Of a DNA stretch of 64,000 bases, positions 860-63,091 are shown piece by piece. The notes beneath the pieces were generated by a model. The model searched no databases. It was not told where the DNA came from and saw only the letters and a list, made by a program, of their open reading frames with translations. Both the position numbers and the translations under genes were made by a program. Every line of letters starts with the position of its first letter. The first letter of the stretch is position 1. Source of the stretch: Trypanosoma brucei (Eukaryota). The stretch is from NCBI GenBank assembly GCA_000002445.1, contig CH464491.1:320001-384000 (forward strand), read 5' to 3'.

Positions 860-959
860 NNNNNNNNNNNNNNNNNNNNNNNNNNNNNNNNNNNNNNNNN
901 NNNNNNNNNNNNNNNNNNNNNNNNNNNNNNNNNNNNNNNNNNNNNNNNNNNNNNNNNNN
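860..959. other. Run of 100 N: a scaffold/assembly gap inside a tandem calpain-like gene array. There is one more isolated n at 1011.
   Basis: Literal n characters in the sequence. Flanking sequences are paralogous calpain-like genes. Confidence 0.99.
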
Positions 960-26778: not shown

Positions 26779-27166
26779 TGTGCTTTATTTTAACTTGGCC
26801 GTTACTTTTCTAAATACCTTCCCGTGTCACTTTCCATGTGCTATTCTCATTACTGAGCGTAACTCACGTTTCTGACGTTACCGCTAGCTTTTCATGGATG
26901 AATGTGACGGAAACTGAAATCTTACGTGACTTATCTTCTGCTGCGTCTTCGTTGAACTACCGTTGTCGCTATCATACATTGTGCCTTTACCCTCACTTTA
27001 TGTGTTTTGTTAAGTTTCGGCTTCGTATGCGCCCCTATTAAACCTTTACCCTCCGCTTTCTGTCTTCTTGTTACGCACTGTTTTTTCCCCCTCTCGTTTT
27101 TTTCTTTGCTTTCTCATCGTTGTTATATTGCCTTTGCAATTTTTTTTAAAAAGAAGGTACCTCATT

Positions 27167-34559: not shown

Positions 34560-34662
34560 GTTTTTTTCACTTCCCTCATTTCTCATCGGACAGTTGCGTT
34601 TGCATTCTTTTCTTTTCTTTTTTTCTTAATTGTATTCCCCCCTCCCCCTTGGCACTGAAGTT
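34560..34662 (+). promoter_or_regulatory. Example poly-pyrimidine tract plus AG, a putative spliced-leader trans-splice acceptor region, upstream of the membrane-protein CDS.
   Basis: ttttttttcacttccctcatttctc...tttcttttcttttttttcttaattgtattcccccctcccccttggcactgaag precedes the first ATG at 34693. Comparable tracts precede every CDS in the window. Confidence 0.4.
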
Positions 34663-34692
34663 AGTGTATGGGAGGAAATAGTTGAGAATACA

Positions 34693-38803: not shown

Positions 38804-39412
38804 ACAGCTTTGTTGAGGTCTCCATTATCTAGTTGAGAGATTTTTTATCGTAATAGTGTAGTCATTATACGCAGTTTATATTTGTTTCCCCTCCCCCAGA
38901 GGTTTATGTGTAATGGTCACACGACAGGAGAGCACAACGTCTGTGCGAATATATGGTGTACTGTTCCCGTTGGAGCAGTTGTTGGGAGACAGAGAAGTGC
39001 TACGGAAAGGAAAGGGGTCACACTCTGGAAGTCGAAAATGAAGTAAGTACCTTCATTGTCTATGGTTTGAAGGTGGTGGATGAGTGGGATCTGTCCCCCC
39101 TTGTCGCCTTGTACGTGGGGATTTTCTTGCCACTATTTCACACAGTCTTTTTTTTTGCCTTTACCTGAGATACTTGGTTGCCTCTTCTACATTGAATACT
39201 GTTCCGCGGTTGAATAGTAAAGACGCAGTCGAAGTGGGCTTCAATAGTGTCATCAGTTACTAAGCGATCATCTTGCTTACAATATCGGAAACATCTCCGA
39301 CTGAAGCCAACACAGACAGAAAAGGCTCGGCGTATCGTGAATACCATTGTGACTCTTATTTACGGCCGCTTCAGTCTACATCGGCAGTCTTCAACGTTGA
39401 GACGTGCCAGTA

Positions 39413-44103: not shown

Positions 44104-45900
44104 TGGCGGTGGTGGTGGTGGTGGTCGTTGCACGTTTAATGAGGTGTGTGTGTGTGTGTGTGTGTGGGAGGAAGGGGAATCCGTCAAGTAGCGATTTCAT
44201 TTATTTAAGTATGATACATGTGTTGGATTCGATGTGTCGGTGTCTTTTGTAGGATTGTTATAGCAAGGAGATGTGCAGTAGGGGGGTGACAAGCGTTTGT
44301 GAGAGTCGGTGACATAAAACGAACAGAGTTTGGGGGAATTCATTCTTCTCTCTAGTATGCGCTTTAGTTTGTTGTATGTCACAACGGAGCGGAACTTTGT
44401 GACGTTGGGGATATGTCCTTTATTTTTCTCTTCTACCCTTCTTAGTTTTTTTGTTATTGTGATTATATTTGTGATGTGCCCTGCTTAACTGACGGAGGAG
44501 TCAGAACCCTACATGTTTACTTTTTTCTATTCTCTTTTTTAACTCATGATCTCTGCAGTGTTTTCACAATCTCTCACTTAGGTTTTTTTTTTTAGCATCG
44601 TATGTCAACAACAATACCTGCAGTTACTGCGAGTGTGAGTGTTTGGTGAGAAACATCAAGGAAGAAGCTTAAGGGAATGAAGCAGTGGCTTAGGATAATT
44701 TTATGCTTGAAAAAGAGAAGAGAGAAAATGAGAAAATCTCGCACACAGAAGCGGAAAGACATAGGTGGGGTCAATGATTAACTATTTTTTACACCGTAGG
44801 GTAGAGGCTTATGAAAAGGTGAAAATAGTTCCAACATGACTCATTTTACCAATGGAGCAACAACAGTTGGGTTTCCCCAAGAAGCGTTCTCTAATGTATT
44901 ATATTTGCGGATAGTAACAATTGCTCGTGACAGAAAATGATTTGCCGCTTCTAACTGTATACCTGCTTACGGAGGGGTGTTGCATGGGGGTTAATATTAC
45001 TTCTTTTTCTTTTTTTTAAAAAAATATATATGTATGCATATACATATGTGTAAGTTTGCGTGCGTGTATTTCCCCTCCCCTGAAAGTAACTACATCGTGA
45101 CTCTCTGTTTGGTGTTATGTTAGCAACCGTTTCATTCATATAAATTCTACTGTACGCCATTCCTCCTCCTCCCCCCCTCCCAGATTTGTTGAGGTCGGCT
45201 CCCTTTTGCTGTCGGTAAGTTATCCATTGTATATGTTGTTTTATTGTTTTTGTTTCTTATCCTCTCTTCTTTCTTTTTTTTGTGTGTGTGTATGTGTGTT
45301 GACGTTGCGCAATCGCACACGTACAATTTGACCATCTCGTTTAATCGATTAAAATAGGTAGCCTGGGAGCATCCCAAAAATAGCTAACACTTGCTCGGTT
45401 ATCATCGAAGGAGACTTCGTTGTTTTACTTTTTTTTTTTTCGTGCGCGTTCTTCGGTCCTATTTGGTTGGGCGACGTTTACGGAGAGTTTGGTGTTGAGA
45501 AAAGGGATATATACGTACAATTTTCTCTTTTGTGTTCACGTTCGTGTGGTTGGTCTACAATCTGCGGAAGGTAGCGCAAAAAAAAGGAGGGTTTATCATT
45601 TTCACTGCACTTAACACCGGCAGCATCGCAGGCGCTTGTGAAAAGGGGTTTACAACGCTATAGACTGTTTGGTTTAACGGTTTACGTGAAGAAACAAAAT
45701 AAAAAGTACAAAAAAAACCAGCGGTTTGTAGGTGTTGCCGTTGAACAAAGGAAAGGAAGTAAAGAGTGAAGGAAGGAAGAATAGCAAGGGTTTCGGCTAC
45801 CGTCAACAAACTCCTTACAATTAAAGAAATAAAGAAAGAGAGAGTGCGAGAGAAAGAAAGAGAAAAGGGGTCTAAAATCAGCACAGTTAAAATAAGAGTG

Positions 45901-46710
45901 ATGAGGCCAACAGGAGAGTCTGAGAAGTTTATAACACTTCCAACCGCCTCGCGGGTACTTCCCACGGGAGGAAGCCCTGCTGATGGCGGTCAGAGGTTGC
46001 AAACTACTATGGGCATAGTATCCCACGGCGCTCAACAGCAAAGGCACAACTCCCAGAACAATGTTACATGGAGGTTGGGAGTAGATGATAGCGTGGAGTC
46101 AAACGGCCTGAATGTTCATGTCCGTGTGCGCGACAGCCGTACTCCAACGCCATTTACTTCCATGTTTGTATCGAGCAGTAGCTCCTCGCCCCTGACAGCT
46201 CGAAGCATGTCCGGATATCAGGAGGAAGAAACATCTCCATATTCCATCAGCGGTGCTGAATACTTGTCTGCTGGTGAACACATAGCACACACAGCACTAA
46301 GTGGGAAATGCAGTTTTTTTTCCTTTCCGGAAGGTTTGCCATCCTTTCGGCCGCCGTCAGTTCCCGCCGAGCGCACCCACAAATTGTTTATTGGACAGCT
46401 ACGCTTTGAAATGTCGCTGGAGGCGCTCGTCTGGTTCCTGCACGAAACCATCAATGTTAATGTGTGCAACATTGAGAAGCGTGGTTGTGGCTGCGCAATT
46501 ATTTCACTGTCGAGTGAGGCGGACCGTGAGGCCGTATTGCAGCTGAAGGAACGGCTCCTCGTTGACATTGGCGGTATGTGGTATGCACGGAGCGATGAGG
46601 AGTGCTGTAACCTCCACAACTACATTGATTGCAGCGTTGCACATATTCCACGACCGCAGAAAGTTCCTCAGCGGCTAGTGGTAATTGAGGAGGCCCGGAC
46701 GGGCAGATAA
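45901..46710 (+). CDS. RNA-recognition-motif (RRM) containing RNA-binding protein.
   Basis: It has an RNP2-like KLFIGQL and a beta-alpha-beta pattern ...LEALVWFLHETINVNVCNIEKRGCGCAIISLSSEADREAVLQ. The first ATG is 45901. The ORF-track GTG start at 45766 lies in purine-rich UTR-like sequence. Confidence 0.5.
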   Translation: MRPTGESEKFITLPTASRVLPTGGSPADGGQRLQTTMGIVSHGAQQQRHNSQNNVTWRLGVDDSVESNGLNVHVRVRDSRTPTPFTSMFVSSSSSSPLTARSMSGYQEEETSPYSISGAEYLSAGEHIAHTALSGKCSFFSFPEGLPSFRPPSVPAERTHKLFIGQLRFEMSLEALVWFLHETINVNVCNIEKRGCGCAIISLSSEADREAVLQLKERLLVDIGGMWYARSDEECCNLHNYIDCSVAHIPRPQKVPQRLVVIEEARTGR

Positions 46711-49700
46711 GTCCGTCTGTCCTGCGCATGCATGTGTGTCCTTTTTGTATTTAATCTTTTATATTTCCCACCTTTTCTCGTCCCATTTTTTGACTTGTTT
46801 TTTGTTCACTTTTGGGTGGATGGGAGTGCAAAAACTGGGGCGTTGCGATACATGAGGTCAACGAAGGTGAGGAAATGTAGTGGACGCGCATGTTGCGTTG
46901 TGCTGTAGAGACAGGGAGTTTTTTTTTTTTTAATTGTAAATAAAAACACCGACGGAAGACAGATTGTTAGTATATTTGGGCAAATTTTGTTCGGTAGTGA
47001 TAGCTAACGATAACGACAGAAGTTACTCACCATTAACGGAAACCGAAATGGGCACAAACGGCAAATATGATGAATGAAAATATCGGAAAAGAATAACAGT
47101 GGGAAGATACAAATCAATAAAGACAACTTCACAACATAAAAGGGCGGTAAAGCATAAGAGGTCAACACCTTTTCGGGTGTTTATTCATTCATTTATTTAT
47201 TCATTTATTAGTCGTTATCAATTTTGAATATCAATAACGATAAAGTGATAATAATAACTTTTAAGGGACGTTTCATTTAATTTAACTCCATTTCTTTTTT
47301 ACTTGTATGTGTGTATATTTTGAGTGTATGTGCATCAGCGACACAATTTCGTTTTGGTCGTTTTTATGACTAGAAGATTTTATGGGAAGGTGATGCAACC
47401 TTTCTTCTTCCTTTTCTTTCCCTTCCCTTCCCTTTCCTTCCCTTCCCTTTTTTTTTAAAAAGAAAATTGACTGTTTCCTGTGGAAAGTGCGTTACCGAAA
47501 GAAGCTTCTGCAGGAACATTTTGGGGTTTTATAATTAAAATAAAAAAAATATTAAAAAATAAAATAATGATAATAATGAAATAACAACAGTAATGAGGAG
47601 AAAGAACTGGGAAAACCGGGTTCGATGGTGACGAAGAAATTCTTTCAAAAGGATTCCGTTACCTTTTTCTCTTCAAATTAAATAACAACAACGGCAGCGA
47701 CAAAAACAAAAAACGGAGTGAAAAGGAATAAAAATATCATAATGAAGAGCGTCACTGGAACCTCCAACGGAGTAATTCCGTTTCCTCCGGCAGTTTTCAA
47801 CATCACGATTTAGTCGGATAATCACGGTAATTTTTTTTAAAAACCTTTTTTTTATTTTTGAAAAGGAATATGTATATAAACATGTGTATTCAAATATATT
47901 TAAATCTAAAAGCGGTAGACACACAAACACAAACATATAACATTTATTTATATAATATGAATGGGTTTGTTTGCATGTGTGACTGCATATTGTAAATATT
48001 CGTCACTATCATAGAAAAAAAACAAGATTGTACATGTATGATTATATGTAAAACATAAATTATAGACCCAATCGACGCACACTTTTTCTTTTGTTTTCCT
48101 TTTATTGAAACTTCACCAATATTGACGATGCACCGGAGGAAAAAAAAAAGGAAAAGAAATACCGTTGGTTATTATTATTATTATTATTATTTAAATTTAA
48201 AAAGAGAACATTTTTTTTTTTGTGCCTCGCTTTTCCACCGCCCTTTTCATGTTTTTATTTTCCCCCTCTCACCCTTAACACCTGAAAAAAAAAGCCGTTA
48301 TTTCAAAGCCCGCTTTCTTCCTTAAATTAATTAAACTCTCGAAATTGCACCTCTACCTGTGTCCTTGTCCACGAAATTAACAGCAGTTTTTAATTTTCTT
48401 TTTCCTCCTTAATTTTATCCCAACATTTTTTTTAATAACCTTTTTTAATTTCCTTTTCTTTTTACCTTCCAATCCTCACTTTACTTTCTCTTTTTTTTGT
48501 TTTGTTTTCATTTTTGTCACACTGCCCGCACCCACCCACCCCCTCCACTCCAATAAGCAAACACACACATATATTTATATATATTTATATATATATTTAT
48601 TTATATGAAGAAAGAAAGAAAGAAAAAAATGCGTTTACTCAACACTGTTTAAAAAACACCTCTTTTATTTCTCCTTTTTTTACTTTTAGTTTTGCATTTG
48701 TTTTATTGTGCATACGCCGTTTTTTTTTTTTGTTGGCATTGTTGTAGTGTTCCGTCGCCCGCCCACAATGTTCATTGTTTTGTTTTGTTTCTGGTCAGGT
48801 TAGAGAGAAAAGGGTGACACCTCAAGCAAAAAAAAATGGTGAAGGAAAGTTAATTATTTAATAAAAGAGTTGGGGAATCGAGAATGCATAACAGGTCGCA
48901 GCATCACATTGCCCGTCCTTTTTTTTTCCTCTTTCTCTCCACTACTTTCTTTCTTATTACAATATTAATAATTATTATTATTACTTCCCCCTTTTAAATA
49001 TTTAAATATTTTTTTCCCCTTCTGGTGTTGTTCCACCGCATCACACGCCTCAAAAACATCTTCGCTTTAACTCATGCTAACAATTTAAAGCAGCGAAAAA
49101 TGATTGAATAATTAGCGACAGCATTTATTCAATAATTTTTGCTTGTTTGCTCTTTACAGCTGATGGAATGAAATGGCTCAGGGGCAAAAGTTGCAGCTTT
49201 TATAATAAAGGCGACGATGGTGTGATGGTGGAGTCATATATATATATATATATTTATTTATTTATTTATTTATATATTTATATATTTATATTTATTTCAT
49301 TTGCCTGCATTTTCACACCTGTTTTTTTTTGAATTGTGTGTGTGTGTGTACATGTGCATGCATATTTTGTTTCAATTTTTCATGTATCTTCCTTTCCTAT
49401 TTTTTTATATTTTTCTTTATATATATATATATATTTATTCAACCATTCATATACACACCACTTGACACTATCACGTTTGTCTCTGTGTGTTCTTTTTTTT
49501 TTGAAAAAAAAATAATTTCCCATATATATACGTCTTCTATATATCCACGTTTGTGCGCTTATCTATACATGTATATATATACATCTATATGCATCTGTAT
49601 TTGATTTTTGATTGATTTGACTGAACTGCGGGCGGCGGAATCGTAAAAGAAAAAAAGAATGAGGCATTGATTTTTTTTTTTTGAAAAAGCAAATATGTAG

Positions 49701-51261
49701 AGAAGGCGGACACAAATGTACAAACGTGAAACAAATCAGCAACTTAAAAGTTAAAAGGAGAAAAGTGAAAAAAATAAAATAAGGTATGATACATTGAGTG
49801 ATATGAGGTGTCTTTTTTTTTTTTACTTAGAGGGTACAGTGTGCACCATTTTTTCTTTCTTTCTTTTTTTGTTATTGAGGTGTGGTTGGGGGGGAAACAG
49901 AAACTTTTTTTTTAAAAAAGGAGAATCAATTTTTAATTTTATTTTTACCTTCACACAAATAACTTTTTTTAAAAAAATATGTTTTTCTCTTGATTCCCTA
50001 CCCACCGTTACGGTACTGGATTTCTTTACTTTCTTTTTTTCATCAATGTTTATATTTATTACTTGTGCTTTTTTTTTTTTCGTAAAAAAAAGGATTAAAA
50101 ATTTTTTTTAATTATATACCCCTATCTTTCATTTTATTATTGTAAATTGTATACACCATGTTAATTATTTATCTGAAATGAGTGAAAAGGTGACAAATGT
50201 AAAAAAAAAACAGCAAAGTGTGGCAGCCCTGTTTCGCTTGAAGTTTACTTTGAATGTAGTTGGGCGCTTCCCTTTATTAATATTGTTAATTATTTTTATT
50301 TTGTTATGCTTTATTTTACTTTGTTTTTATTTCATTTTTTTTTCTATTCACTGGGTTTTCACTTTGTTGCCTTTTCCTCTTCGTCACTGCCGTTGCCGTT
50401 GCTCCTATCGCTCCTCACTGGTGTGGTATCTTTTTGTTTGATTCCCTTTCTCTTCTTCTCTTTTTTTTTCTTCCTCTTTATCCCTCTACTATATTACGTT
50501 ATATTTTAAAATATCCCTCATGTATGATTAGATGGAGACAAGGGAAAAGAAAGAAAGAACGAAACCTCCTTTACTCGTGTATGCATTATAATACGGCATA
50601 TGTCATATTATTCTCTTTTTTAAAAAAAAAAACATATTCGTATAGGAGTAGTGCACACTTTATGTTGTTAGGTAGAGGCAAAGATATAAATGTATAATAC
50701 ATGCATATATATATATATATATATTGTGCATCTAAAAGGCGGAAGGAAACGAAAGAGAGCGTTGTTGCGATATGTTTCTTCAGTTATTTGTGTTGCTGGT
50801 GGTGGTGCGTGAGCGAGAAAATAATTAGAATTCGCGTATTAGATGAATTACCGGAGGTTTCCGCTCCCACCACCAAAAAAAATAATATAAGTACGGCGTG
50901 ATTCACCGGAGACGTTGCCGTTCATCTTATTTTTTGAGGAGACATGAAAGAAAAAAAGAGAAAGAACGAAGGAGTCTGTGGGCCAACCAGCTACTCGGGG
51001 TTTTTGGAGTGATACATCGTGTCGTTGTGTTTCATAGAATGTTGGTGCCTTTTTTTTTAAAAAAAAATCGAATAATACGATTTGGACGATCCCTTTAATG
51101 TTTTTGTGTGTTGTATTCACCTGTACCCAGTCAAATGCAGTGCGTCGTGTATCGTCTTTTCTCCCCATACCTCTGAAACGATTGTTTGCTCATACAGACA
51201 CACACACACACAAAAAAAAAGGCCGGAGCCACGATAAATTATACACGTGCATGCTGGAATA
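46711..51261 (+). other. ~4.5 kb gene-free AT-rich tract, probably a very long 3'UTR/intergenic region. It contains AUUUA-type AU-rich elements and many microsatellites.
   Basis: No ORF above 105 aa on either strand, and all ORFs are low complexity. UAUUUAUUUAUUUAUUUAUAUAUUUAUAUAUUUAUAUUUAUUU lies at 49247-49295. ATTTA clusters sit at 47170-47210. (TTCCC)n is at 47400-47450 and TnAn tracts are present. Confidence 0.6.
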
Positions 51262-52458
51262 ATGAAATTGTCACAACGGTTCCTATCAAACACTTTAGCG
51301 GAGGCCGGCACGCTTCCTTCCCGTGGGACGAGCCATTCTGAAGCAATACGGCAGTTGATCATGTCTACATTTCCTACAGCAACCATCTCATTTATCACCA
51401 CAGGTTCTAATGGTGCTCACAGTGCCAACGTTACTGATACTACCGCTAGTGTCACTAATGCAGGAACCTGCGCAGAAGAGGACGAAAAACTTATGGAACA
51501 ATTACGTATGAAGGACCAGGAGTCCAAACAATCGGTAGGATGCAGTGAATCACTCGGAGCTCGGCGTGGGCCCTTCACAGATTGCTGCTCACCTCAAGGA
51601 GTTGCGGAGTGGCAACGTTTGCATCAGTTGTTCCCAGCAGAAGCTTTCGTAAATGCTCCACAACCCTGTTGGACTCCACATGCTGTAGTTTACATTGGTG
51701 GATTTGAAGCCCCCGACTTGCGCCGTACAGTTGCACCGCGACTTTTCGAAAAGGTGCCCGCCTTCGTAACGGATAGCGAGCGGGAGCAAACCGTTGGAGG
51801 TCGGACGGCTGTAGGAGGGCGGCAGAAAAATCCCAAGTATGCAACCAAAACACTCCACACGGGACTCCTCATGAGTGAAAAGGGTTGTGCACTGCACGAA
51901 CCAGATTTACTGCAGTTGGCTCTACCACATGTGGGACCATCTGCTATGATACGTACTCGCACATATCTTTCATTTGCTGGTGCGGAGCCTAATGTAACGG
52001 CGTTGAATGGCGCAGTGGACCCGATGCAGCGGGTGGCGCTTCGTCCAGCCTTTGGTTATTCCGCTGCGGCGCTGAGGAACACACTTCCATTTGTTGTCGT
52101 GGGGGCATCTCTGTTACTCCGCCGCTGGAATGCACGATGGTCCTCCACAACTTTGAGTAGCGCCTTTTGGCTTTCTGCAGTTGGTCATGCGGTGGAGAGC
52201 GGACGCATGAGTGAAGCCGGATTGTTAGTGCAGAAGGGAGGCGTGGATGCAAATTCAGTGATGCGGGTGCTGGCAATGGAGGCAAGTTCAATAGCGAAAA
52301 ACTGCCCAGAGGATTGTTGTGTAAACTACTTTTTGCCATCGGAGACATTTGAGTTAGAGAGAGGTTTTGCCGAGTTGATGAATGTTGGACCTCGTCTTCC
52401 CATCGATGATCTAAAGGTATTACCCGTGTACCCTCTTTTGGTGCGTCAAACACGTTAG
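51262..52458 (+). CDS. Hypothetical protein. The N-terminus is presequence-like.
   Basis: ORF from the first ATG (MKLSQRFLSNTLAEAGTLPSRG...), with codon-like composition throughout. The ORF-track start at 51247 is GTG. Confidence 0.5.
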   Translation: MKLSQRFLSNTLAEAGTLPSRGTSHSEAIRQLIMSTFPTATISFITTGSNGAHSANVTDTTASVTNAGTCAEEDEKLMEQLRMKDQESKQSVGCSESLGARRGPFTDCCSPQGVAEWQRLHQLFPAEAFVNAPQPCWTPHAVVYIGGFEAPDLRRTVAPRLFEKVPAFVTDSEREQTVGGRTAVGGRQKNPKYATKTLHTGLLMSEKGCALHEPDLLQLALPHVGPSAMIRTRTYLSFAGAEPNVTALNGAVDPMQRVALRPAFGYSAAALRNTLPFVVVGASLLLRRWNARWSSTTLSSAFWLSAVGHAVESGRMSEAGLLVQKGGVDANSVMRVLAMEASSIAKNCPEDCCVNYFLPSETFELERGFAELMNVGPRLPIDDLKVLPVYPLLVRQTR

Positions 52459-52952
52459 TGTTGTTGTTGTTGCTGTTGTTTTTCTTAGTTATTAGGGGCG
52501 AATGTTTCTCATCCGCCGTCATGAGGATAGAAAGGTATTTATTTTTATAGTTAAGGCCTCCTTTGCGTGTGATGTGTGTCTGTTTGTGTTGTCAAAGCTT
52601 TATCGGCAAATGGGTGGTGGTCTACCCGAGGGAAGGCCTTTTGTTGTTGTTGTTGTTGTTGTCTTATTGGGGAAGAAGTCAGCGCATAGAATTTTTTTTA
52701 AAAGAAAAAATGGTGGCAAATTTGGGTAATATTCTTTTTCTTTCTATTTCTTTAAAAAGAAAAAAACGGTATTATAACAACATCTCGGCTAGAGTATATA
52801 TATATATGTATATTACCTCCAACGTGCCGTCACGTTTTGTGCTTCTTAATCTATATATTTATCTCTCGGTACTGTTTTTTATGCCTTACCCGACAAGTTA
52901 CCATATTGCCCTTTGTCAAGCAACAAAACGCAAAGAACGTGGTTCGTTGAGA

Positions 52953-54035
52953 ATGAATGTTTTTGATTCCAACAGCATGCTCTGTCAAGTTGTTAGCAAT
53001 ATCACAGACCCGGTGGAACTTTTCATCGAACCAGAAATGACTGTGGGTGAGGTGCGTGCATTGGTTGCGGAGATGACAGTTGACTCCAACGATTGGAATG
53101 TTCGTCTCACATTCCAAGGTCACACTTTAGAGGACGACGAGGAGACATGGAGTTCCGTGACTCAGCAGTACCCCGTCGCACAAGGAGTTGCTCCTAAACT
53201 CTTTTCACATGCATCTAAGAAACGAGAAGAAAAGGCGCGACGACCGGTGAGTTTACCTCTGATGGAAGAACAAAAGGATCGACAGCAGGCAAAACTTATG
53301 GAACCGATAATCGACACGTTGGTTAACGATCCAAATTTTTCGGAGATGATGATCTCGGGTCAGCCGTCGCTTCGTCGTTTGATTGATGCGAACCCGGAGG
53401 TGGGGCGCTTGTTCCGGAACCCAGAAACCCTCAAGAGTCTCATTATGTCACAAATCGACCCTGATCAGCGAAGGGCAATGAATCGAAATGTGCAGTTGCA
53501 GTTGGCACAAATTAGCGCGATTCCCGGTGGTGAGCAGCTTCTTGAACGGTATACCAGTGGGCTTATGGACGATATGGACCTAAACTTGGACCTTGTGAGG
53601 AACACAAAGATTAAGGTTCCAGAAGACGAAAAAGATGATAATTCCGAGTCTGTGAGAGGGGTAAATAGCGAAGCCCTTCCAAACCCTTGGAGTCAGTCGA
53701 CTAACACCGCCGACTCGGGTAACACAAACACTTTTAGTAACGCCGCGATGAACCTTTTTGGGATTCCTGGGAATGTGGGCCATCCGAGTTTAGGAAACCT
53801 TTTTGGGTCCGGTTTGGGGGGACCGTTTCCTTTTATGTCTCCCGGCATCTCAATACCCCAAACAGGCGTAACCGCATCGCAACGGGGAGATGACGCCACG
53901 CGGTGGTCTCAGCAACTCGCCATGTTGAAGGATATGGGTTTCATGGATGAAGAGTTGTGTTTGGACGCACTTCGAATGACTAATGGAGATGTGGACATGG
54001 CAGTAAACTTCATTGTGAACAAAGATAGCTCTTGA
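52953..54035 (+). CDS. Ubiquilin/Dsk2-like protein: N-terminal ubiquitin-like domain, STI1-like repeats and a C-terminal UBA domain.
   Basis: The UBL is MNVFDSNSMLCQVVSNITDPVELFIEPEMTVGEVRALVAEM...LTFQGHTLEDDE. The STI1-like repeats include QPSLRRLIDANPEV...FRNPETLKSL. The UBA is WSQQLAMLKDMGFMDEELCLDALRMTNGDVDMAVNFIV. The ORF-track upstream extension (52563-52952) is a translated poly-pyrimidine/(GTT)n tract. Confidence 0.75.
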   Translation: MNVFDSNSMLCQVVSNITDPVELFIEPEMTVGEVRALVAEMTVDSNDWNVRLTFQGHTLEDDEETWSSVTQQYPVAQGVAPKLFSHASKKREEKARRPVSLPLMEEQKDRQQAKLMEPIIDTLVNDPNFSEMMISGQPSLRRLIDANPEVGRLFRNPETLKSLIMSQIDPDQRRAMNRNVQLQLAQISAIPGGEQLLERYTSGLMDDMDLNLDLVRNTKIKVPEDEKDDNSESVRGVNSEALPNPWSQSTNTADSGNTNTFSNAAMNLFGIPGNVGHPSLGNLFGSGLGGPFPFMSPGISIPQTGVTASQRGDDATRWSQQLAMLKDMGFMDEELCLDALRMTNGDVDMAVNFIVNKDSS

Positions 54036-54890
54036 TGTTTCTGTCAAAAAGGAAAAAAAACTTGTCGCACAGAATGGTGGGTGCGGTTGCGCGTGTACGT
54101 TTTCACGAAAGGAGAATTGATGGATGTGGCGTGTAGTTTAGACATATGTGGACGGCCCCGCGGCGGAGGATTTGGGTTTTAAGTGTGTCTCCTTTTCCAT
54201 TTTTAAAAAAAAATTCCAATGCTTTACTTTGGATATATCTGGATGGGGGCACTCTTATATGCTACACCCTTGCGACTTACTTTTCCGTTCATTTACTGTG
54301 GGGTGAGGTTTAAAAAAAAAAACTCGTGTTACTGGAATGGTAAGCGTCGTTTGTTCGTGAACCACATGCTTACATTGGCTATTTAACCTCATTTCATACG
54401 CTCAAGGAGGGGATCAGGGACTTTAATCCACAAGCTTTTGTCACTTTCCCCCTTGTTTTTTGTTTGTATGCACCTTAATGTATGTCTGTCTATTTTCTTT
54501 TTTTCTTCCGAGGTAATATATATATATATATTTTACGTATATATTGGGCACAAACGAACACCTTTTTTTTGCCGGTCAACTTAAAGAATGGGTGGAGCGA
54601 CTTCATCTGAAAGGGGGAATACGAAAAAAAAAAAGGGGGTGTAGCGTTGAGGAACTACTTTCCACTACGGAACGAGCCCTAAAAGAAGGGAAATAGGGAA
54701 GTAATACGCAAAGCACATTTATAAATATTTATATAAAGGGAAAGAGAGCACAGGAGGGCTGTTGGAAACGCAATAAAGCACTTGTGGTACCTCTTCTTTT
54801 TGCGAAAGTGAGGTTACGCTTTGGGTTGCTACTTTTCAGGCGGTAAACTAAGTGATTAGGGTGTGCGTAATTAAAAGTTCCCACCACTTT

Positions 54891-55868
54891 ATGCGCTTTG
54901 TTCCACCTTTCCTTGCGGGTGCAGCACTCGCAACTTACTACCGACCTCTGGACAAGTCGAAATCTGCATATTGCTACGCGAGTATTGAAAATGCCTTACA
55001 CTTTCAACCTAAACCAAAGCCCGGAAAAGTTTTTTCCCAACGATACCAACCGTATACCCTTGGGGATGTTGTTCCGATAACACATGACACTGCTCTTTTT
55101 CGTTTCCTTATTGATGGAAATGAAGAGTTTAACCTAAAGCCATGCTCCACACTACAGGCATGCTACAAATATGGCGTGCAACCTATGGATCAATGCCAGC
55201 GCTTCTACACTCCTGTGACGGCTAATCACACGAAAGGTTATTTCGATATTATTGTGAAGCGCAAGCAAGGGGGACTCATGACAGAGCATTTATTTGGTAT
55301 GCACATAGGAGATAAACTTCTGTTTCGATCAGTCACATTCAAACTGCAGTATCGTCCGAATAGGTGGAAACACGTGGGAATGATAGCGGGTGGCACTGGG
55401 TTCACTCCAATGTTGCAAATCATCCGTCATTCGCTCCAGGAAGAATGGGACAACGGTATGGTTGATCGGACTAAATTATCTTTTCTTTTCTGTAACCGAA
55501 CGGAGAGACACATTTTGTTGAAGGGACTCTTTGATGATCTCGCACAAAAGTATTCCAATCGTTTTAAGGTATATTACACAATTGATCAGGCTGTCGAGCC
55601 TGACGTATGGCCGCACTACACCGGACTCGTAACAAAAGAGATGGTGCATGAGACCATGCCGGCACCGAATGAGGAAAAAAAGATTATATTATTGTGTGGT
55701 CCCGATCAGCTGTTGAATCATGTCGCTGGAACACCAATGGGAACAATGAACACCATGTCGAGTGGAATGAATATCCAACCGATGGCACCAGACCTCAATA
55801 ATTTAGTAAATCTTGGGGGGATATTAGGGGAACTCGGGTACTCCAATGATGAAGTTTATCGCTTCTAA
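54891..55868 (+). CDS. NADH-cytochrome b5 reductase-like FAD/NAD oxidoreductase.
   Basis: It has the FAD motif RFYTPVT (RxYTP), the NAD(H) motif GGTGFTPM and CGPDQLL (CGPxxM). The N-terminal hydrophobic anchor is MRFVPPFLAGAALATYY. Confidence 0.8.
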   Translation: MRFVPPFLAGAALATYYRPLDKSKSAYCYASIENALHFQPKPKPGKVFSQRYQPYTLGDVVPITHDTALFRFLIDGNEEFNLKPCSTLQACYKYGVQPMDQCQRFYTPVTANHTKGYFDIIVKRKQGGLMTEHLFGMHIGDKLLFRSVTFKLQYRPNRWKHVGMIAGGTGFTPMLQIIRHSLQEEWDNGMVDRTKLSFLFCNRTERHILLKGLFDDLAQKYSNRFKVYYTIDQAVEPDVWPHYTGLVTKEMVHETMPAPNEEKKIILLCGPDQLLNHVAGTPMGTMNTMSSGMNIQPMAPDLNNLVNLGGILGELGYSNDEVYRF

Positions 55869-56810: not shown

Positions 56811-57419
56811 ATGCTTCGTCGCACGTCGTTTAATTTCACAGGGCGTGCGATGATTTCGCGCGGCAGCCCCGAGTGGTCGCATCGTTTGGATCTCAAGAAG
56901 GGGAAAAAGACGACAATGATGCACAAACTTGGCACCAGTAAACCCAATAATGCATTGCAGTATGCACAAATGACTTTACACGACCTTACGGAGTGGTGCC
57001 TCGCTTACTCGCCGTGGCCTCTCACCTTCGGTTTGGCATGTTGCGCCGTAGAAATGATGCATGCATATGCTTCTCGGTATGATTTGGATCGTTTTGGTAT
57101 TGTACCGCGTCCAACACCCCGTCAAGCAGAAATTATTATTGTCTCCGGCACTGTGACAAATAAAATGGCTCCAATCTTGCGGAACATATATGTTCAAATG
57201 GTGAACCCCAAGTGGGTTATTTCCATGGGAAGCTGCGCTAACGGTGGTGGTTACTATCACTTCTCCTACGCCGTGCTCCGAGGCTGTGAAAGAGCAATAC
57301 CAGTTGATTTCTGGATTCCCGGTTGCCCTCCTTCAGCGGAAAGTCTTGTCTTTTGCTTGCATACATTACAGAAGAAAATACGCTGGCACGAAATTCAAAA
57401 GTATTCTGTTCGAGATTAA
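56811..57419 (+). CDS. NDUFS7: NADH:ubiquinone oxidoreductase 20 kDa subunit (NDUFS7/PSST/NuoB) with an N-terminal mitochondrial presequence.
   Basis: It has the motifs [25 protein letters not shown] and GCPP (N2 cluster Cys ligands). The presequence is [19 protein letters not shown]. Confidence 0.9.
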
Positions 57420-58071: not shown

Positions 58072-58407
58072 ATGTCCGCGAAGATGTGCCACGTCGTCAT
58101 GTTTGCTCTCGACGCAACGAAGTTCGCCGCCAATCTTCCGGGTTCCGAGTTGCAGCGGCACCTGAAATTACTTCGCGAAACAGTTCCGGGTTTGCTCGAA
58201 ATTAATATGGGCCCAACTGGAACGGATCTTTTTCCCGGTTATGTGGATTGCAGCGGTGGTTTTACTCATTGCCTTGTCTCAAAGCACACAGATGTAAAGG
58301 CACTGCAGGAATATGTGGCGCATCCGAACCACGTCACGTTTGCGGAATTACTAAAGGCCTCATATTCCAAACCTCCCATCCGTGTGGACTTTGAGCTGAA
58401 GGAGTGA
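58072..58407 (+). CDS. Dabb-type stress-responsive dimeric alpha/beta-barrel protein.
   Basis: 111 aa. HVVMFAL...GFTHCLVSKHTDVKALQEYVAHPNHVTFAELL matches the Dabb family pattern (HVLLFKF...GFTHIFESTFES.EAVAEYIAHPAHVEF). Confidence 0.7.
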   Translation: MSAKMCHVVMFALDATKFAANLPGSELQRHLKLLRETVPGLLEINMGPTGTDLFPGYVDCSGGFTHCLVSKHTDVKALQEYVAHPNHVTFAELLKASYSKPPIRVDFELKE

Positions 58408-59620: not shown

Positions 59621-62600
59621 ATGAGTTCTGTGAGGCTTCTACTTGGTCAGGTGATGCACATCACTCCGTCGAGTGTTATTTTCTCTGCTGATGAAGTGGA
59701 CACACTTGACTTTCAGACAGTGAGCACCATTCCGAAAGCACACCGGGACTTTGTTCAAAAAAATGGACTCATTGCGAAGGTTATGCTCTCAGTGACATCA
59801 AAAATAACGAGCTGGAGCACACGGGAGGAGCGACAAAAGATTTGGTGGGACGCACTGACGAGCACTGGGCTCGTCAGGTCCAAAGCGACCACCGTTGAGG
59901 TGCCAACTAACCTGAGCGGTGTGTTTTGGCCCATTATAGACGATGAACAATTGATGATATATGCCGATGCGGCGATAAAGCGCCATGCGAATCTGAAACT
60001 TAATGAGTGCCCTTACGTTGTTCCAGTTTTATATGCGCAGCAAATATTTTATAAGTGCCAGGAGGTCAAGGGGACGCTTTGTGTAGTTTGGATGCCGAAA
60101 TGTAGGTACAACTTGGCTCACTGGACTAAGGTGCAAGTGCCCAGACGGTTCATCCCCGAATCTGTACTATACAAACTTATATACGACATCACCAATGCTC
60201 TAATTTTCCTTCGCGATGTTTGTGTGGAGTATCCAGCCTGTATCTCCATGGAAGACATCCTCGTCGGAGGAGTTAGTGATGCGGAACCATCTTTTTTGTT
60301 GAACACATTAACCAGTAGACCAACCTGCAATCAGAGCGAGGCGAACAGCAGATCGTCGTCCACGGTGCTTTTCGCACCTGAGTTGTTGATTCAACCTTGC
60401 AAATTGCTTACCAACTCGGCTTGTAATGTTTGGTCGCTGGGGATGATCGCTTACCAAATTGCATCGGGACTACCTAGCGAGGAAAGTAAAGCACATCTTA
60501 TGGGGACACGCCACGCGGCAGGTGAGATGATGCTTAATCATTATCGATTGAAACCAAGCGATGTTGTACTTCGTGTGCGGGCAGTACTGCAGGCGGGTTC
60601 TTACAACAACCCGTTTATTCACCTCCTGCTTCTTATGCTAGGTCAGGACCCACACACGCGACCAACACCCTATGTGGTCTATGAAATGCTCCGTGATATT
60701 ATGCGTTTCAAGCCTGTCATTCGCTTCCCGTTTGCCATTGGACCCTTCACTCTGGTGCACTTGTGGTCGGATGACAAAATAGCAGTCGATCCAGTACAGC
60801 GGCGGTACGATACAGAGGCTACCTGTATCGTATGCAACGAAAGCCGCAGCAATTTGATGTGCGGGGACAATGAGCACACGTCTGCACTGTGTTCACCCTT
60901 GTGGTCCGCGGAGGAGCCGCTTCCGGGGTACGCAGTAGCTCGTGAAACTTCCATGACTTACTTGTATCCCATGCTTGGGAGATTGGACAAAAAAGCGCAG
61001 CGGCGGTACATCGATGCAGCATTACGTGGCGACAAAATGAATAGAGGCAGCTTGCTTCAACTGCTCGGTGGTTTCGCTTTGTTGAAACCCAATGAGGGGA
61101 AAAGTGCTGTGGCTCACGACGTGATGATTCCTTTACCTAATGGTGTTCTTCATAAGGATGAAAAAGTCGCAGTGGCTGCGGAACTCAATTTCACCGCGGC
61201 ACTGCCGTGGCCTTCGCAGTGCACTTTCAAACTCCAGCAGGAGGGGAGAATACAGTGGTCCATACCTGGGTTATTCGGCTTCTCCAATGCCCGTTGGTAT
61301 GCGTGGATATTACCGGGAGAGAAGCTGGAGTTGAATGGGGAACCGTGGGTACCGGCCCCTGATGGTGCTTTCGTGTTTTGGTTTAACGAAAGTCTACAAC
61401 CCTCAGAGTATGATCGGTATTTCGTTGTCTGCAGTGTCCTCTCCTTGACGTGGCAGGCGAAAATGAAGAGCAACGTGCTTCCCGACCACGTCTTCAAGAG
61501 AAAGGGTGATGTCGGTGGTTTGACACCCAGCAACGGATCTGAGGGCGGTTTCTCAAGCTGTACAACATCCCACAACGGCGAAGGGTCGGCGGAACGTCAC
61601 TCCAAAAAAGATGTGGACGGTGTGAACAAAAGTGGTCGTAGCGCGTTAGGGCAACGCTCTGTGAACTCGTTGCTCAATCTCCCCAAAGTTGGGGATCTGC
61701 AGTGCACAAAGGGAGATGGTATATTGCCCGCCCGGAGGCAGGTGAGTAGCACTGCAAATACCACCTCATCATCATCCAACTCTTGTGATTCTGATAACTC
61801 AAATCCTAACCACCGACGGCCTCCGAGGCGTGGAAGTGCGGTTGTGCGCATGGACTATGTGGATGATGTTGTGCCGGATATGATTTTTGATGGCACAGGG
61901 GAGACAAACAGCAAAGGGCAGCCGCTGCAACCTCAGCAGCGAAACGGGGTTACCGGACACCGATCAAACTCAACAGAAGGTATCATATCTGTACTTCATA
62001 GGAGTGAAGACGGGATGGCTTGTTCCACACCTCGTGAGCCAACGTACCCTCGAGAGAGACCTCAGGGCAGGCACATAAACCCTCAACCAACCGAACCAAC
62101 GGCTAACCCCCGTCCTCCACCTCCGAATAATTCCCCCGGAAGACGTCAACGGCACGAAGGTGAGGGCAAGTTTGGTCGACTACCAAGTGGAATGGTTACA
62201 ACACCAACCCTCTCCAAATCACCATCCGGATCCCGCTTCTCTGGTCGGCCATCATCGCCAAGCGCCGCGGATGTTAACCGGACGTTGTCACCGAAGGAGA
62301 GCGCAGTGCTTCAACAGAGTAAAACCGGATTCCCACTGCAATCGCCCCCATTACGTGTGTTTGGACGTTGGCATCCTCCGCGGCACATTGACGCGCCGTT
62401 TCAATCGCTTACATTCTGCACATCGTCAACTGCTGAGCATGGGACCTTATCGCCACCAGTGATGCTGTCGATGGGAGTCCGCACGGCCCTCCATGCTCCT
62501 GCCGCCGCAACTCACATGGCGTTCGCCGCCAATATTATGCCATTAGTTCGCCGAAATCATCCAAAGAGCTCTGCGGCACTTGTTGTTAAGGAAAACAATG

Positions 62601-63091
62601 CGCGAGACATCATCCCCCACCATGGTTTGGTGTTTTATGATGAAAAGGAGGAGGTAGTTGGTCTTTTGGCACTGCGATTCGCCCTGACAAGATCTCCGGA
62701 CATCACTACAGGAGAAATGCTTCTTCCAATAAGGCTACTGCCGCCAGTTGTTGCGACAGCCGCCTTTAACGCGCAGTTGAATGCTGCTTATTTTACCGGT
62801 AATGCAGTTTTCCACAGTATCACACGCGTTGGGAGTGAAAGTGAAGTATTGCGTCACTCAGAGAGTCTCCAACACCTCGGAAACTTCGAAACTCTTTCGC
62901 CCTTATCTAAGAAACTAACCCTTTCAGGGGCGCGTTTCGGAGCAAGCGATGATCCACCGCACAAAGTAGTCTGCGGTGACGACGACGTCCTGCCGTTCTG
63001 TTGGATTGGTTTTGAAAACCAGTCGCGTATGTTGATGATTTCAGATGTGCATCGCCTCTCCTGGTATCCATTATACTTCACTGATGAATAA
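59621..63091 (+). CDS. Large protein with an N-terminal degenerate protein-kinase-like (pseudokinase) domain and a long Ser/Pro/Thr/Arg-rich low-complexity C-terminal region.
   Basis: The kinase-like fold motifs are KRHANLKLNE.PYVV..LYA...GTLCVVWMPKCRYNLAHW, ESVLYKLIYDITNALIFLRD and FAPELL...NVWSLGMIAYQIASG. The catalytic-loop HRD is replaced (YPACISMEDILVGG) and the DFG is replaced (LLNTLTS). Confidence 0.55.
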   Translation: MSSVRLLLGQVMHITPSSVIFSADEVDTLDFQTVSTIPKAHRDFVQKNGLIAKVMLSVTSKITSWSTREERQKIWWDALTSTGLVRSKATTVEVPTNLSGVFWPIIDDEQLMIYADAAIKRHANLKLNECPYVVPVLYAQQIFYKCQEVKGTLCVVWMPKCRYNLAHWTKVQVPRRFIPESVLYKLIYDITNALIFLRDVCVEYPACISMEDILVGGVSDAEPSFLLNTLTSRPTCNQSEANSRSSSTVLFAPELLIQPCKLLTNSACNVWSLGMIAYQIASGLPSEESKAHLMGTRHAAGEMMLNHYRLKPSDVVLRVRAVLQAGSYNNPFIHLLLLMLGQDPHTRPTPYVVYEMLRDIMRFKPVIRFPFAIGPFTLVHLWSDDKIAVDPVQRRYDTEATCIVCNESRSNLMCGDNEHTSALCSPLWSAEEPLPGYAVARETSMTYLYPMLGRLDKKAQRRYIDAALRGDKMNRGSLLQLLGGFALLKPNEGKSAVAHDVMIPLPNGVLHKDEKVAVAAELNFTAALPWPSQCTFKLQQEGRIQWSIPGLFGFSNARWYAWILPGEKLELNGEPWVPAPDGAFVFWFNESLQPSEYDRYFVVCSVLSLTWQAKMKSNVLPDHVFKRKGDVGGLTPSNGSEGGFSSCTTSHNGEGSAERHSKKDVDGVNKSGRSALGQRSVNSLLNLPKVGDLQCTKGDGILPARRQVSSTANTTSSSSNSCDSDNSNPNHRRPPRRGSAVVRMDYVDDVVPDMIFDGTGETNSKGQPLQPQQRNGVTGHRSNSTEGIISVLHRSEDGMACSTPREPTYPRERPQGRHINPQPTEPTANPRPPPPNNSPGRRQRHEGEGKFGRLPSGMVTTPTLSKSPSGSRFSGRPSSPSAADVNRTLSPKESAVLQQSKTGFPLQSPPLRVFGRWHPPRHIDAPFQSLTFCTSSTAEHGTLSPPVMLSMGVRTALHAPAAATHMAFAANIMPLVRRNHPKSSAALVVKENNARDIIPHHGLVFYDEKEEVVGLLALRFALTRSPDITTGEMLLPIRLLPPVVATAAFNAQLNAAYFTGNAVFHSITRVGSESEVLRHSESLQHLGNFETLSPLSKKLTLSGARFGASDDPPHKVVCGDDDVLPFCWIGFENQSRMLMISDVHRLSWYPLYFTDE

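What the first reader, a model, noticed from the sequence alone, without database searches (positions are those of the whole stretch)
59621..63091. Pseudokinase with HRD and DFG replaced, fused to a ~750-aa disordered S/P/T/R-rich tail
Kinase subdomain signatures are recognisable (APE-like FAPELL, DVWSLG-like NVWSLGMIAYQIASG). The catalytic Asp (HRD replaced by YPACISMED) and the Mg-binding DFG (replaced by LNTLTS) are absent, which predicts no phosphotransfer activity. The tail is rich in SP/TP/RRxS motifs, consistent with a phospho-regulated scaffold.
Basis: partly seen in the sequence, partly recalled or inferred. Interest (0 to 1): 0.5.

Follow-up and report, generated by a model that had tools for sequence, protein, structure and literature searches.

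The report
FC1, a dead-kinase flagella connector protein

Summary
The ORF 59621..63091 (+), 1156 aa, is real. [quoted passage not shown]

The "750-aa disordered tail" is largely wrong. AlphaFold and conservation show:
- a CCCH zinc-knuckle segment (366-470);
- a ~130-aa module (476-606) shared with C-terminal-RING proteins of other protists;
- a folded C-terminal domain (911-1156).
Only residues 629-907 are disordered and S/P/T/R/G-rich; this linker carries the PLK sites.

None of the three extra domains matches Pfam or PDB sequences, and none resembles the KKT2/3/20 or polo-box domains.

The gene is already known. The additions are modest: FC1 is catalytically dead, contrary to the paper that named it, and its domain map is new.

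The parts
59621..63091 (+). Complete FC1 (Tb927.11.1340) coding sequence: 1156 codons plus TAA.
   Evidence: ORF list. 100% identity to T. equiperdum/T. brucei proteins. Gene ID from neighbour order: Tb927.11.1260 Cu-ATPase and Tb927.11.1320 NDUFS7. Exact match of published phosphosites T888/S890.
59621..60706 (+). Pseudokinase domain (aa 1-362): complete bilobal kinase fold without catalytic residues.
59777..59779 (+). K53, equivalent to the beta3 (VAIK) lysine; retained in all 23 family members.
59789..59941 (+). Trypanosomatid-specific insert (aa 57-107) between beta3 and alphaC, partly helical; absent from the bodonid-type relatives.
   Evidence: Alignment. Helix 68-81 in the model, pLDDT 76-89.
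60230..60262 (+). Degenerate catalytic loop YPACISMEDIL (aa 204-214): HRD becomes P205-A206-C207, the loop Lys becomes S209, the loop Asn becomes D212.
60299..60316 (+). Degenerate DFG region LNTLTS (aa 227-232): the DFG Asp becomes T229 (MAFFT) or N228 (HMMER); no Asp in either register.
60374..60382 (+). Retained APE motif (A252-P253-E254). Its salt-bridge partner R347 (60659-60661) is also retained.
60716..61030 (+). Zinc-knuckle segment (aa 366-470), starting with the conserved F-P-F-x-x-G-P motif. Family-invariant C402-x2-C405-x3-R409...C414-x4-H419 (nt 60824-60877).
   Evidence: Alignment A6 invariants. No Pfam or PDB relative. pLDDT mostly 78-89, low at 412-416. Zinc binding is inferred, not shown.
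61046..61438 (+). Conserved ~130-aa module (aa 476-606; GGFA...PWPS.CT..LQ..GRIQ...W.WILPGE...W.PAPDGAFVFWF...DRYF). It is also found next to C-terminal RING fingers in non-kinetoplastid protists.
   Evidence: HMMER hits restricted to profile positions ~480-610. RING domains in those proteins. Local hmmsearch E 1e-14 to 1e-30. Alignment A4. No Pfam or PDB relative. pLDDT 87-94.
61505..62341 (+). Intrinsically disordered, S/P/T/R/G-rich linker (aa 629-907).
   Evidence: Composition and conservation. pLDDT 30-44. A comparable linker of 220-420 aa is present in every trypanosomatid orthologue.
61814..61870 (+). Conserved island in the linker, RRPPRRGSAVVRMDYVDDV (aa 732-750): candidate short linear docking motif; holds the only RRxS site.
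   Evidence: Invariant R732, R733, R743, M744, D745, Y746, V747 among four Trypanosoma species. Related RRP.[LM]RV..[FI]N[DE] in the Leishmaniinae-like orthologues.
62276..62293 (+). N886-R-T888-L-S890-P: the published TbPLK-dependent phosphosites. T888 lies in a polo-kinase consensus [D/E/N]-x-[S/T]-hydrophobic; S890 is proline-directed.
   Evidence: PMC4551316. The consensus assignment rests on general knowledge of PLK specificity.
62351..63088 (+). Conserved C-terminal domain (aa 911-1156), mixed alpha/beta, with an internal disordered loop at aa 1061-1120 (nt 62801-62980). Family motifs: FGRW, TGEHG, RNHP, PHHG.VFY, CW.GFD.
   Evidence: Alignment A5. pLDDT 84-95 outside the loop. No Pfam or PDB relative. 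Not similar to the PLK1 polo-box domain or to the module.

Best explanation
The ORF encodes FC1 (Tb927.11.1340), a structural component of the flagella connector. [quoted passage not shown]

Shown here. Its N-terminal domain is a complete kinase fold that cannot carry out canonical phosphotransfer: there is no Gly-rich loop, no catalytic Asp, no DFG Asp and no conserved alphaC Glu. It is followed by three further conserved parts: a CCCH zinc-knuckle segment, a ~130-aa module shared with RING-finger proteins of other protists, and a C-terminal alpha/beta domain. A ~280-aa disordered linker separates the module from the C-terminal domain.

Shown by others. FC1 localises to the connector throughout its existence. 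Its depletion uncouples the two flagella without a growth defect. T888 and S890 respond to TbPLK inhibition. Its translation rises about 13-fold in procyclic forms.

Inferred. FC1 acts as a non-catalytic scaffold. The pseudokinase, module and C-terminal domains are protein-binding surfaces that build or anchor the connector plate. The linker is the regulated element: TbPLK (at T888, a polo consensus site) and a proline-directed kinase (at S890), 20 residues before the C-terminal domain, would tune assembly or release of the junction. The conserved basic/hydrophobic island at 732-750 would be a docking motif.

The dead catalytic site is ancestral to trypanosomatids. It appears to derive from a catalytically equipped kinase still seen in free-living kinetoplastid-type relatives.
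For: Identity: 100% match to the T. brucei-group protein; gene order Tb927.11.1260 ... 1320 ... 1340; published T888/S890 fall exactly on R-T-L-S-P in this ORF.

Loss of catalytic residues in 16/16 trypanosomatid orthologues, against retention of HLD, N171, D184 and G52 in 7/7 bodonid-type relatives of the same architecture (Pfam E 1e-12 to 1e-18 for those relatives).

The residues at the dead positions vary between species (C/S/T/Y/N/P/A), as expected for relaxed constraint, while the fold-stabilising APE Glu and R347 are invariant.

Folded versus disordered map.

Function and regulation: PMC4551316, PMC4210626, PMC11555346, PMC9826329.
Against: No biochemical test of FC1 activity or nucleotide binding was found. 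K53 is invariant and an acidic residue (D212) sits at the catalytic-loop Asn position in 11 of 16 orthologues, so nucleotide or metal binding, or a non-canonical mechanism, is not excluded. The paper that named FC1 assumed it is an active kinase. The scaffold role of each domain, zinc binding, and the regulatory role of the phosphosites are inferences with no partner identified here. FC1 is placed in connector zone 3, described as lying between the two membranes. The sequence has no signal peptide or transmembrane segment, which is hard to reconcile with that placement. Orthology, rather than paralogy, of the catalytically equipped relatives is not proven; only one is assigned to an organism (Neobodo designis).
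Confidence: 0.8

Rival explanations
1. FC1 is an active but atypical protein kinase that uses relocated or alternative catalytic residues, as WNK, CASK or haspin-type exceptions do. It would signal together with TbPLK at the connector, as the paper that named it suggested.
For: K53 (beta3 Lys) is invariant in all 23 family members. D212 occupies the catalytic-loop Asn position in most orthologues, next to the Trypanosoma-invariant E211. APE and R347 are intact. The domain is under purifying selection (40-77% identity per bin). The authors speak of 'FC1 and TbPLK activity'.
Against: Four separate elements are lost together: the Gly-rich loop, the alphaC Glu, the HRD Asp and the DFG Asp. The residues replacing the two Asp positions are not conserved even among Trypanosoma species (C/S/T/Y and T/I/V/A), so no substitute catalytic residue is evident at those sites. 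Pfam Pkinase scores below threshold (20 bits), against 209 bits for the canonical CDK-type kinase in the same window.
Confidence: 0.1
2. FC1 is a nucleotide-binding pseudokinase 'switch'. It binds ATP without turnover, and the bound state controls its conformation and partner binding at the connector.
For: The invariant K53 and the near-invariant acidic D212 could contribute to nucleotide or cation contacts. Structural neighbours include the pseudokinases ILK, MLKL and ULK4; that these bind nucleotide is general knowledge, not tested here.
Against: The Gly-rich loop is completely replaced (H13, T15, S18). There is no conserved alphaC Glu to position K53 and no DFG Asp for metal binding. From general knowledge, pseudokinases with this combination of losses usually do not bind nucleotide.
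Confidence: 0.15
3. FC1 is a diverged paralogue of the kinetochore proteins KKT2/KKT3/KKT20 (kinase + Cys-rich central domain + divergent polo boxes) that was redeployed to the flagellum.
For: There is a superficial likeness in layout: N-terminal kinase-like domain, central Cys-containing segment, linker, conserved C-terminal domain. FC1 also has a functional link to polo-like kinase.
Against: The exhaustive HMMER search with the full-length family profile returned no protein matching KKT2 (1260 aa) or KKT3 (1058 aa) in length and domain pattern. Profiles of the Cys-rich segment and the C-terminal domain find no KKT2 central-domain or polo-box entry in the PDB. The C-terminal profile against the PLK1 polo-box domain gives probability 0.1%. 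FC1 has one C3H site, whereas the KKT2 CL domain binds two zinc ions and is followed by a C2H2 finger. KKT20 is a different gene, Tb927.8.4760.
Confidence: 0.02

Closest known systems
FC1 / Tb927.11.1340, flagella connector protein 1 of Trypanosoma brucei (McAllaster et al. 2015, PMC4551316)
   Same: It is the same gene. [quoted passage not shown]
   Different: Nothing differs in the molecule. What differs is the description. The literature held here calls it a kinase and speculates about its activity, and treats everything after the kinase domain as one unknown 'C-terminal domain'. The present analysis shows a dead catalytic site and resolves the rest into a zinc-knuckle segment, a shared module, a disordered linker and a C-terminal domain.
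Scaffolding pseudokinases such as ILK, MLKL and ULK4 (ULK4 = FCP5 is itself a flagella connector/groove protein in T. brucei, PMC9826329)
   Same: They have a complete kinase fold retained under selection with loss of catalytic motifs, they serve as structural or adaptor elements in cytoskeletal or membrane-associated assemblies, and they are among the structural neighbours of the model.
   Different: There is no specific sequence affiliation with any of them (11-18% identity). FC1 has lost more motifs than ILK or ULK4, which from general knowledge still bind ATP. FC1 also carries a trypanosomatid-specific insert between beta3 and alphaC and a unique set of downstream domains.
Bodonid-type kinases with the same architecture (e.g. 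Neobodo designis A0A7S1MLZ3, P0037/P0089)
   Same: They share the order of kinase domain, F-P-x-x-L-x-P motif, C-x2-C...C...H segment, GGFA...PWPS...GRI/F...W.PAP.GGFVF module and C-terminal ...SGE.G...PHHG... domain.
   Different: They keep H-L-D, the catalytic-loop Asn, D-L-E (DFG Asp) and a glycine in the Gly-rich loop. They lack the beta3-alphaC insert and mostly have a much shorter linker of 80-140 aa.
KKT2/KKT3/KKT20 kinetoplastid kinetochore proteins
   Same: They are kinetoplastid-specific multi-domain proteins with a kinase (or lost kinase), a Cys-rich centre and a conserved C-terminal domain.
   Different: No detectable homology outside the generic kinase fold. KKT2 and KKT3 are described in the cited papers as protein kinases. 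They localise to kinetochores, not the flagellum.

Membership tests
Eukaryotic protein kinase-like (ePK) fold | Bilobal fold: N-lobe beta-sheet plus alphaC, C-lobe helices alphaD-alphaI. | tested here: met
Eukaryotic protein kinase-like (ePK) fold | Significant match to the Pfam Pkinase profile. | tested here: inconclusive
   The T. brucei sequence scores 20 bits (E 5e-4), below the 31.7-bit gathering cutoff, and covers the C-lobe only. Orthologues score 22-27 bits. Bodonid-type relatives score 46-68 bits, above the cutoff.
Catalytically competent protein kinase | Catalytic Asp of the HRD motif (PKA D166). | tested here: not met
   C207 in T. brucei; C/S/T/Y/N/P/A in 16/16 trypanosomatid orthologues; same register in the HMMER alignment.
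Catalytically competent protein kinase | Mg-binding Asp of the DFG motif (PKA D184). | tested here: not met
   T229 (MAFFT) or N228 (HMMER). No Asp at this position in any of the 16 trypanosomatid orthologues.
Catalytically competent protein kinase | Gly-rich loop GxGxxG. | tested here: not met
   H13, T15 and S18 at the three Gly positions.
Catalytically competent protein kinase | beta3 Lys (K72) paired with alphaC Glu (E91). | tested here: inconclusive
   The Lys is kept (K53, invariant). The aligned alphaC position is K120 and varies (K/Q/A/R/E/S) across orthologues, but the alignment of this helix is less certain because of the 50-aa insert.
Pseudokinase (sequence definition: lacks at least one of VAIK Lys, HRD Asp, DFG Asp) | [quoted passage not shown] | tested here: met
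   Two of the three are missing (HRD Asp, DFG Asp) in all 16 orthologues, with the fold retained.
Pseudokinase (functional definition) | No phosphotransfer activity in vitro. | not testable with these tools
   Requires recombinant protein and a kinase assay. None was found in the literature searched.
FC1 / flagella connector component | Sequence identity with Tb927.11.1340, including the reported phosphosites T888 and S890. | tested here: met
   Neighbour-based ID. R887-T888-L889-S890-P891 in the ORF. The description matches. The TriTrypDB record itself could not be read.
FC1 / flagella connector component | Localisation at the new-flagellum tip/old-flagellum junction, and flagellar detachment on depletion. 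| not testable with these tools
   Taken from PMC4551316 and PMC11555346; not re-testable here.
KKT2/KKT3/KKT20 family | Central CL-type zinc domain homologous to the KKT2 central domain (solved for Bodo saltans and Perkinsela). | tested here: not met
   The profile of aa 362-475 against all PDB sequences has best E 4.4, to ZRANB3, with no KKT2 entry. There is a single C3H ligand set, against two zinc ions plus a C2H2 finger in KKT2.
KKT2/KKT3/KKT20 family | C-terminal divergent polo-box domain. | tested here: not met
   The C-terminal profile against PDB sequences has best E 1.8, to an unrelated protein. A domain-level structural comparison could not be run.

The most novel reading that the evidence does not exclude
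FC1 is the trypanosomatid descendant of an ancient kinetoplastid kinase whose catalytic site died before the flagella connector evolved. Its real working parts would then be two undescribed domains: (a) a ~130-aa module that in other protists is the presumed substrate-binding part of RING E3 ligases, and (b) a C-terminal domain with no known relative. These domains, rather than any kinase activity, would build the inter-flagellar junction. The family would have an older, unknown flagellar or cytoskeletal role in Leishmania and other species that lack a connector.
Probability: 0.4. Interest if true: 0.5.

Novelty: already known. Interest (0 to 1): 0.3.

Why it matters
The flagella connector is one of the few known mobile transmembrane junctions between two cilia, and FC1 was its first molecular component. 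The paper that named FC1 proposed that FC1 and TbPLK form a kinase signalling network controlling connector movement. If FC1 is catalytically dead, that model needs revising: FC1 would be a substrate and scaffold, not a signalling enzyme, and TbPLK (plus a proline-directed kinase) would be the only enzymatic input known so far.

The domain map gives concrete constructs for dissecting connector assembly: pseudokinase 1-362, zinc knuckle 366-470, module 476-606, linker 629-907 with T888/S890 and the 732-750 island, and C-terminal domain 911-1156.

The contrast between dead trypanosomatid orthologues and catalytically equipped bodonid-type relatives is a clean natural example of kinase-to-pseudokinase conversion. 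The shared module also defines an un-curated domain family linking kinetoplastid kinases with RING-type proteins of distant protists. These are useful refinements, not a discovery of a new kind of system.

Tried and rejected
1. KKT2/KKT3/KKT20 relationship. This was my own early lead, from the kinase + Cys-rich + C-terminal-domain layout. KKT20 is Tb927.8.4760 and lacks a kinase domain. No KKT-like hit appeared in the exhaustive search. There were no PDB hits to the KKT2 central domain or to polo boxes. hhalign against the PLK1 PBD was negative. Rejected.

2. Internal duplication (module = C-terminal domain). hhalign probability 0.7%. Rejected.

3. Full-length AlphaFold with the four-sequence Trypanosoma alignment gave pLDDT 27.7 and was unusable. 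It was rescued with a 23-sequence alignment.

4. The word-indexed homologue search found only Trypanosoma sequences in all three tries, including a linker-free query. The exhaustive HMMER search was needed to reach Leishmaniinae and bodonid-type relatives.

5. Fold searches with the full-length model were saturated by kinases, so the folds of the central and C-terminal domains could not be classified.

6. Literature searches by accession (Q387B8, XP_828225, etc.) and by 'NUKM' found nothing. The gene ID came from the copper ATPase neighbour, followed by a search of adjacent IDs. Varga et al. 2017 (PMC5559017) is not held, so I could not check whether it comments on FC1's catalytic residues.

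7. Transmembrane or secreted protein: maximum 19-residue hydropathy is 1.39 and the N-terminus is part of the kinase N-lobe. Rejected.
Full report
**What is in the sequence**

The finding's coordinates are exact. An uninterrupted ATG-to-TAA ORF of 1156 codons lies at 59621..63091 on the + strand. All but one of the 22 ORFs of at least 200 aa in the window are on the + strand, and GC content is about 45%. That is the pattern of a trypanosomatid polycistronic unit. The protein is 100% identical to TEOVI_000293900 of Trypanosoma equiperdum, and it clusters at 90% identity or more with 1156-aa proteins of T. brucei TREU927 (XP_828225.1), T. b. gambiense and T. b. equiperdum. These records are deposited as 'hypothetical protein, conserved' or 'protein kinase domain-containing protein'.

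**Identity**

The 964-aa P-type ATPase ORF at 39404-42298 corresponds to Tb927.11.1260, the copper-transporting ATPase TbATP7 of 102 kDa (PMC11537032). The NDUFS7-like ORF at 56811-57419 corresponds to Tb927.11.1320 (PMC8312217). One small Dabb-domain ORF follows, which puts the target at Tb927.11.1340.

That ID belongs to FC1, 'flagella connector 1'. [quoted passage not shown] In this ORF, residues 887-892 are R-T-L-S-P-K, so T888 and S890 coincide exactly. I regard the identification as secure, although I could not read the TriTrypDB record itself.

**What is already known about FC1**

- It partly co-localises with TbPLK.
- RNAi gives no growth defect but frees the new flagellum tip in 48% of 1N2K and 59% of 2N2K cells.
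- Later work places FC1, with FCP1, in connector 'zone 3' (PMC11555346), and lists FC1 among four proteins whose loss severs the connection (PMC9826329).
- Ribosome profiling found about 13-fold more ribosome footprints in procyclic forms at nearly unchanged mRNA (PMC4210626). This fits a structure that exists only in procyclic forms.

**The pseudokinase claim**

The T. brucei sequence alone matches Pfam Pkinase only weakly: 20 bits against a cutoff of 31.7, over the C-lobe only. A canonical CDK-type kinase in the same window scores 209 bits. A profile of four Trypanosoma orthologues reaches E 1e-4 against PDB kinases.

An alignment with PKA gives the following equivalences:

| PKA position | FC1 (T. 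brucei) |
|---|---|
| G50 / G52 / G55 | H13 / T15 / S18 |
| K72 | K53 (kept) |
| E91 | K120 (variable across orthologues) |
| Y164-R165-D166 | P205-A206-C207 |
| K168 | S209 |
| N171 | D212 |
| D184-F185-G186 | T229-L230-T231 (HMMER shifts this by one, to N228) |
| APE | A252-P253-E254 (kept) |
| D220 | N269 |
| R280 | R347 (kept) |

All 16 trypanosomatid orthologues lack both Asp residues, and the replacing residues differ from species to species. Named sources include T. congolense, T. vivax, T. grayi, T. theileri, T. conorhini, Leishmania martiniquensis and Lotmaria passim.

In contrast, seven relatives share the whole downstream architecture, one of them from the free-living bodonid Neobodo designis. 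These keep H-L-D, the loop Asn, D-L-E or D-F-E, and a Gly-loop glycine. They also pass the Pfam threshold.

The simplest reading is that a catalytically equipped kinetoplastid kinase lost its active site in the trypanosomatid stem lineage, while the fold stayed under selection. Whether those relatives are strict orthologues is unresolved.

No paper I could search calls FC1 a pseudokinase. [quoted passage not shown]

**The 'tail'**

Conservation and composition by segment, together with the AlphaFold confidence profile, divide the remaining 790 residues as follows.

1. **aa 366-470, zinc-knuckle segment.** It starts with the family-wide F-P-F-x-x-G-P motif. It contains an invariant C402-x2-C405-x3-R409...C414-x4-H419 set, most simply a single zinc site; this is an inference.
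2. **aa 476-606, shared module.** This is the best conserved part of the protein (up to 87% identity per bin, pLDDT about 90). The exhaustive HMMER search shows it is a mobile module. It recurs in the bodonid-type kinases. It also recurs in short proteins of unrelated protists that end in a C3HC4 RING finger, for example one from the centrohelid Pterocystis.
3. **aa 629-907, linker.** This is the only truly disordered, S/P/T/R/G-rich stretch.
4. **aa 911-1156, C-terminal domain.** It is a confident alpha/beta domain interrupted by a disordered loop at 1061-1120, with family motifs FGRW, TGEHG, RNHP, PHHG-VFY and CW-GFD.

None of the three folded parts matches any Pfam family or the sequence of any solved structure. 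Their folds could not be classified, because the only model available is full-length and kinase hits saturate both fold searches.

**The linker**

A biased linker of 220-420 aa is present in every trypanosomatid orthologue, but it is mostly much shorter (80-140 aa) in the bodonid-type relatives.

It contains 7 SP/TP sites and one RRxS site, fewer than the finding implies.

Two features stand out:
- The published phosphosites sit 20 residues before the C-terminal domain. T888 is in N-R-T-L, a polo-kinase-type context, and S890 is followed by Pro. Both are conserved in T. congolense.
- A conserved island, RRPPRRGSAVVRMDYVDDV (aa 732-750), is invariant at seven positions among four Trypanosoma species. 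It is recognisable as RRP-x-[LM]-RV-x-x-[FI]-N-[DE] in the Leishmaniinae-like sequences.

**Mechanism**

Three statements are shown here: the protein is FC1, it has a kinase fold without the catalytic apparatus, and three further conserved domains and one disordered linker follow.

Others have shown its connector localisation, the attachment phenotype, its TbPLK-dependent phosphorylation and its procyclic-specific translation.

The rest is inferred. FC1 would be a non-catalytic scaffold whose folded domains bind other connector components. Its linker would be the point where TbPLK and a proline-directed kinase regulate assembly or release.

I give about 0.8 to the combined statement 'FC1, catalytically dead, structural'. 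I give about 0.1 to a non-canonical active kinase. I give about 0.15 to a nucleotide-binding but inactive switch, which is a variant of the main model rather than an alternative to it.

**Comparison with known systems, and verdict**

An early resemblance to the kinetochore proteins KKT2, KKT3 and KKT20 was tested and not supported.

The gene is already known and experimentally characterised, so the finding is not novel as an object. The architectural claim of a 750-aa disordered tail is largely wrong.

The extra results are useful but incremental: the active bodonid-type relatives, the un-curated module shared with RING proteins, the C3H site, the domain boundaries, and the presence of FC1 orthologues in species without a flagella connector. 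Interest: 0.3.

Noticed in passing
window 61046-61438 (aa 476-606); P0047, P0058, P0063, P0070, P0071: The best conserved block of FC1 is a ~130-aa module. It also occurs, without any kinase, in small proteins of non-kinetoplastid protists (one from the centrohelid Pterocystis) that end in a C3HC4 RING finger. It has no Pfam family and no PDB sequence relative, so it appears to be an un-curated domain family.
   Followed up: partly
P0029-P0031, P0035-P0039 (search hits, not in the window): Relatives with the full FC1 architecture keep HLD, the catalytic Asn, D-L-E and a Gly-loop glycine. Only one has a named source (Neobodo designis). Orthology versus paralogy with FC1 is unresolved.
   Followed up: partly
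whole ORF 59621-63091: FC1 is assigned in the literature to connector zone 3, described as lying between the two flagellar membranes. The sequence has no signal peptide and no transmembrane-grade hydrophobic segment (maximum 19-aa hydropathy 1.39).
   Followed up: partly
P0021 (Lotmaria passim), P0022 (Leishmania martiniquensis), P0014 (T. theileri), P0015 (T. conorhini), P0005 (T. grayi): Full-length FC1 orthologues with the same dead active site exist in trypanosomatids beyond T. brucei. One paper read here reports the connector only in procyclic T. brucei; its absence from these species is my recollection, not checked. The family therefore probably has an older, unknown role.
   Followed up: no
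window 61814-61870 (aa 732-750): A conserved island, RRPPRRGSAVVRMDYVDDV, sits inside the otherwise unconserved disordered linker. A related motif occurs in the Leishmaniinae-like orthologues. It is a candidate docking motif.
   Followed up: partly
window 47-967 and 804-5993: A calpain-like ORF is followed by (and overlaps in another frame) a 1729-aa ORF with 13 DUF7623 repeats plus a calpain domain. By its features this resembles the ClpGM6 flagellar/FAZ calpain-like protein. The window starts inside the first ORF.
   Followed up: no
window 18713-19699: A fully canonical CDK-type protein kinase (Pfam Pkinase 208.9 bits), probably CRK6 (Tb927.11.1180) by position. It serves as an internal positive control against FC1's 20 bits.
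   Followed up: no
window 8168-9166; 10954-14373; 20880-22247; 25069-26778; 52563-54035; 54852-55868; 58072-58407: Other annotatable neighbours: radial spoke protein 3, a Vps18/Pep3-like protein, a RING-PHD protein, a DUF4470/DUF4471 protein, a ubiquilin-like UBA protein, a cytochrome-b5-reductase-like oxidoreductase and a Dabb stress-responsive barrel protein. Several long ORFs (27068-29509, 30886-32232, 34630-35940, 36179-38803, 45766-46710, 51247-52458) have no Pfam match.
   Followed up: no
window 48001-50000: This is the most AT-rich stretch of the window (GC 0.30), with a (TATATATT)6.6 microsatellite at 49239-49291 and no long ORF. It is probably a long intergenic/UTR region within the polycistron.
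   Followed up: no
P0017 (1764 aa, EukProt): This orthologue continues for about 600 residues beyond the family's conserved C-terminus with unrelated, partly low-complexity sequence. It is probably a gene-model fusion or read-through in the source assembly.
   Followed up: no
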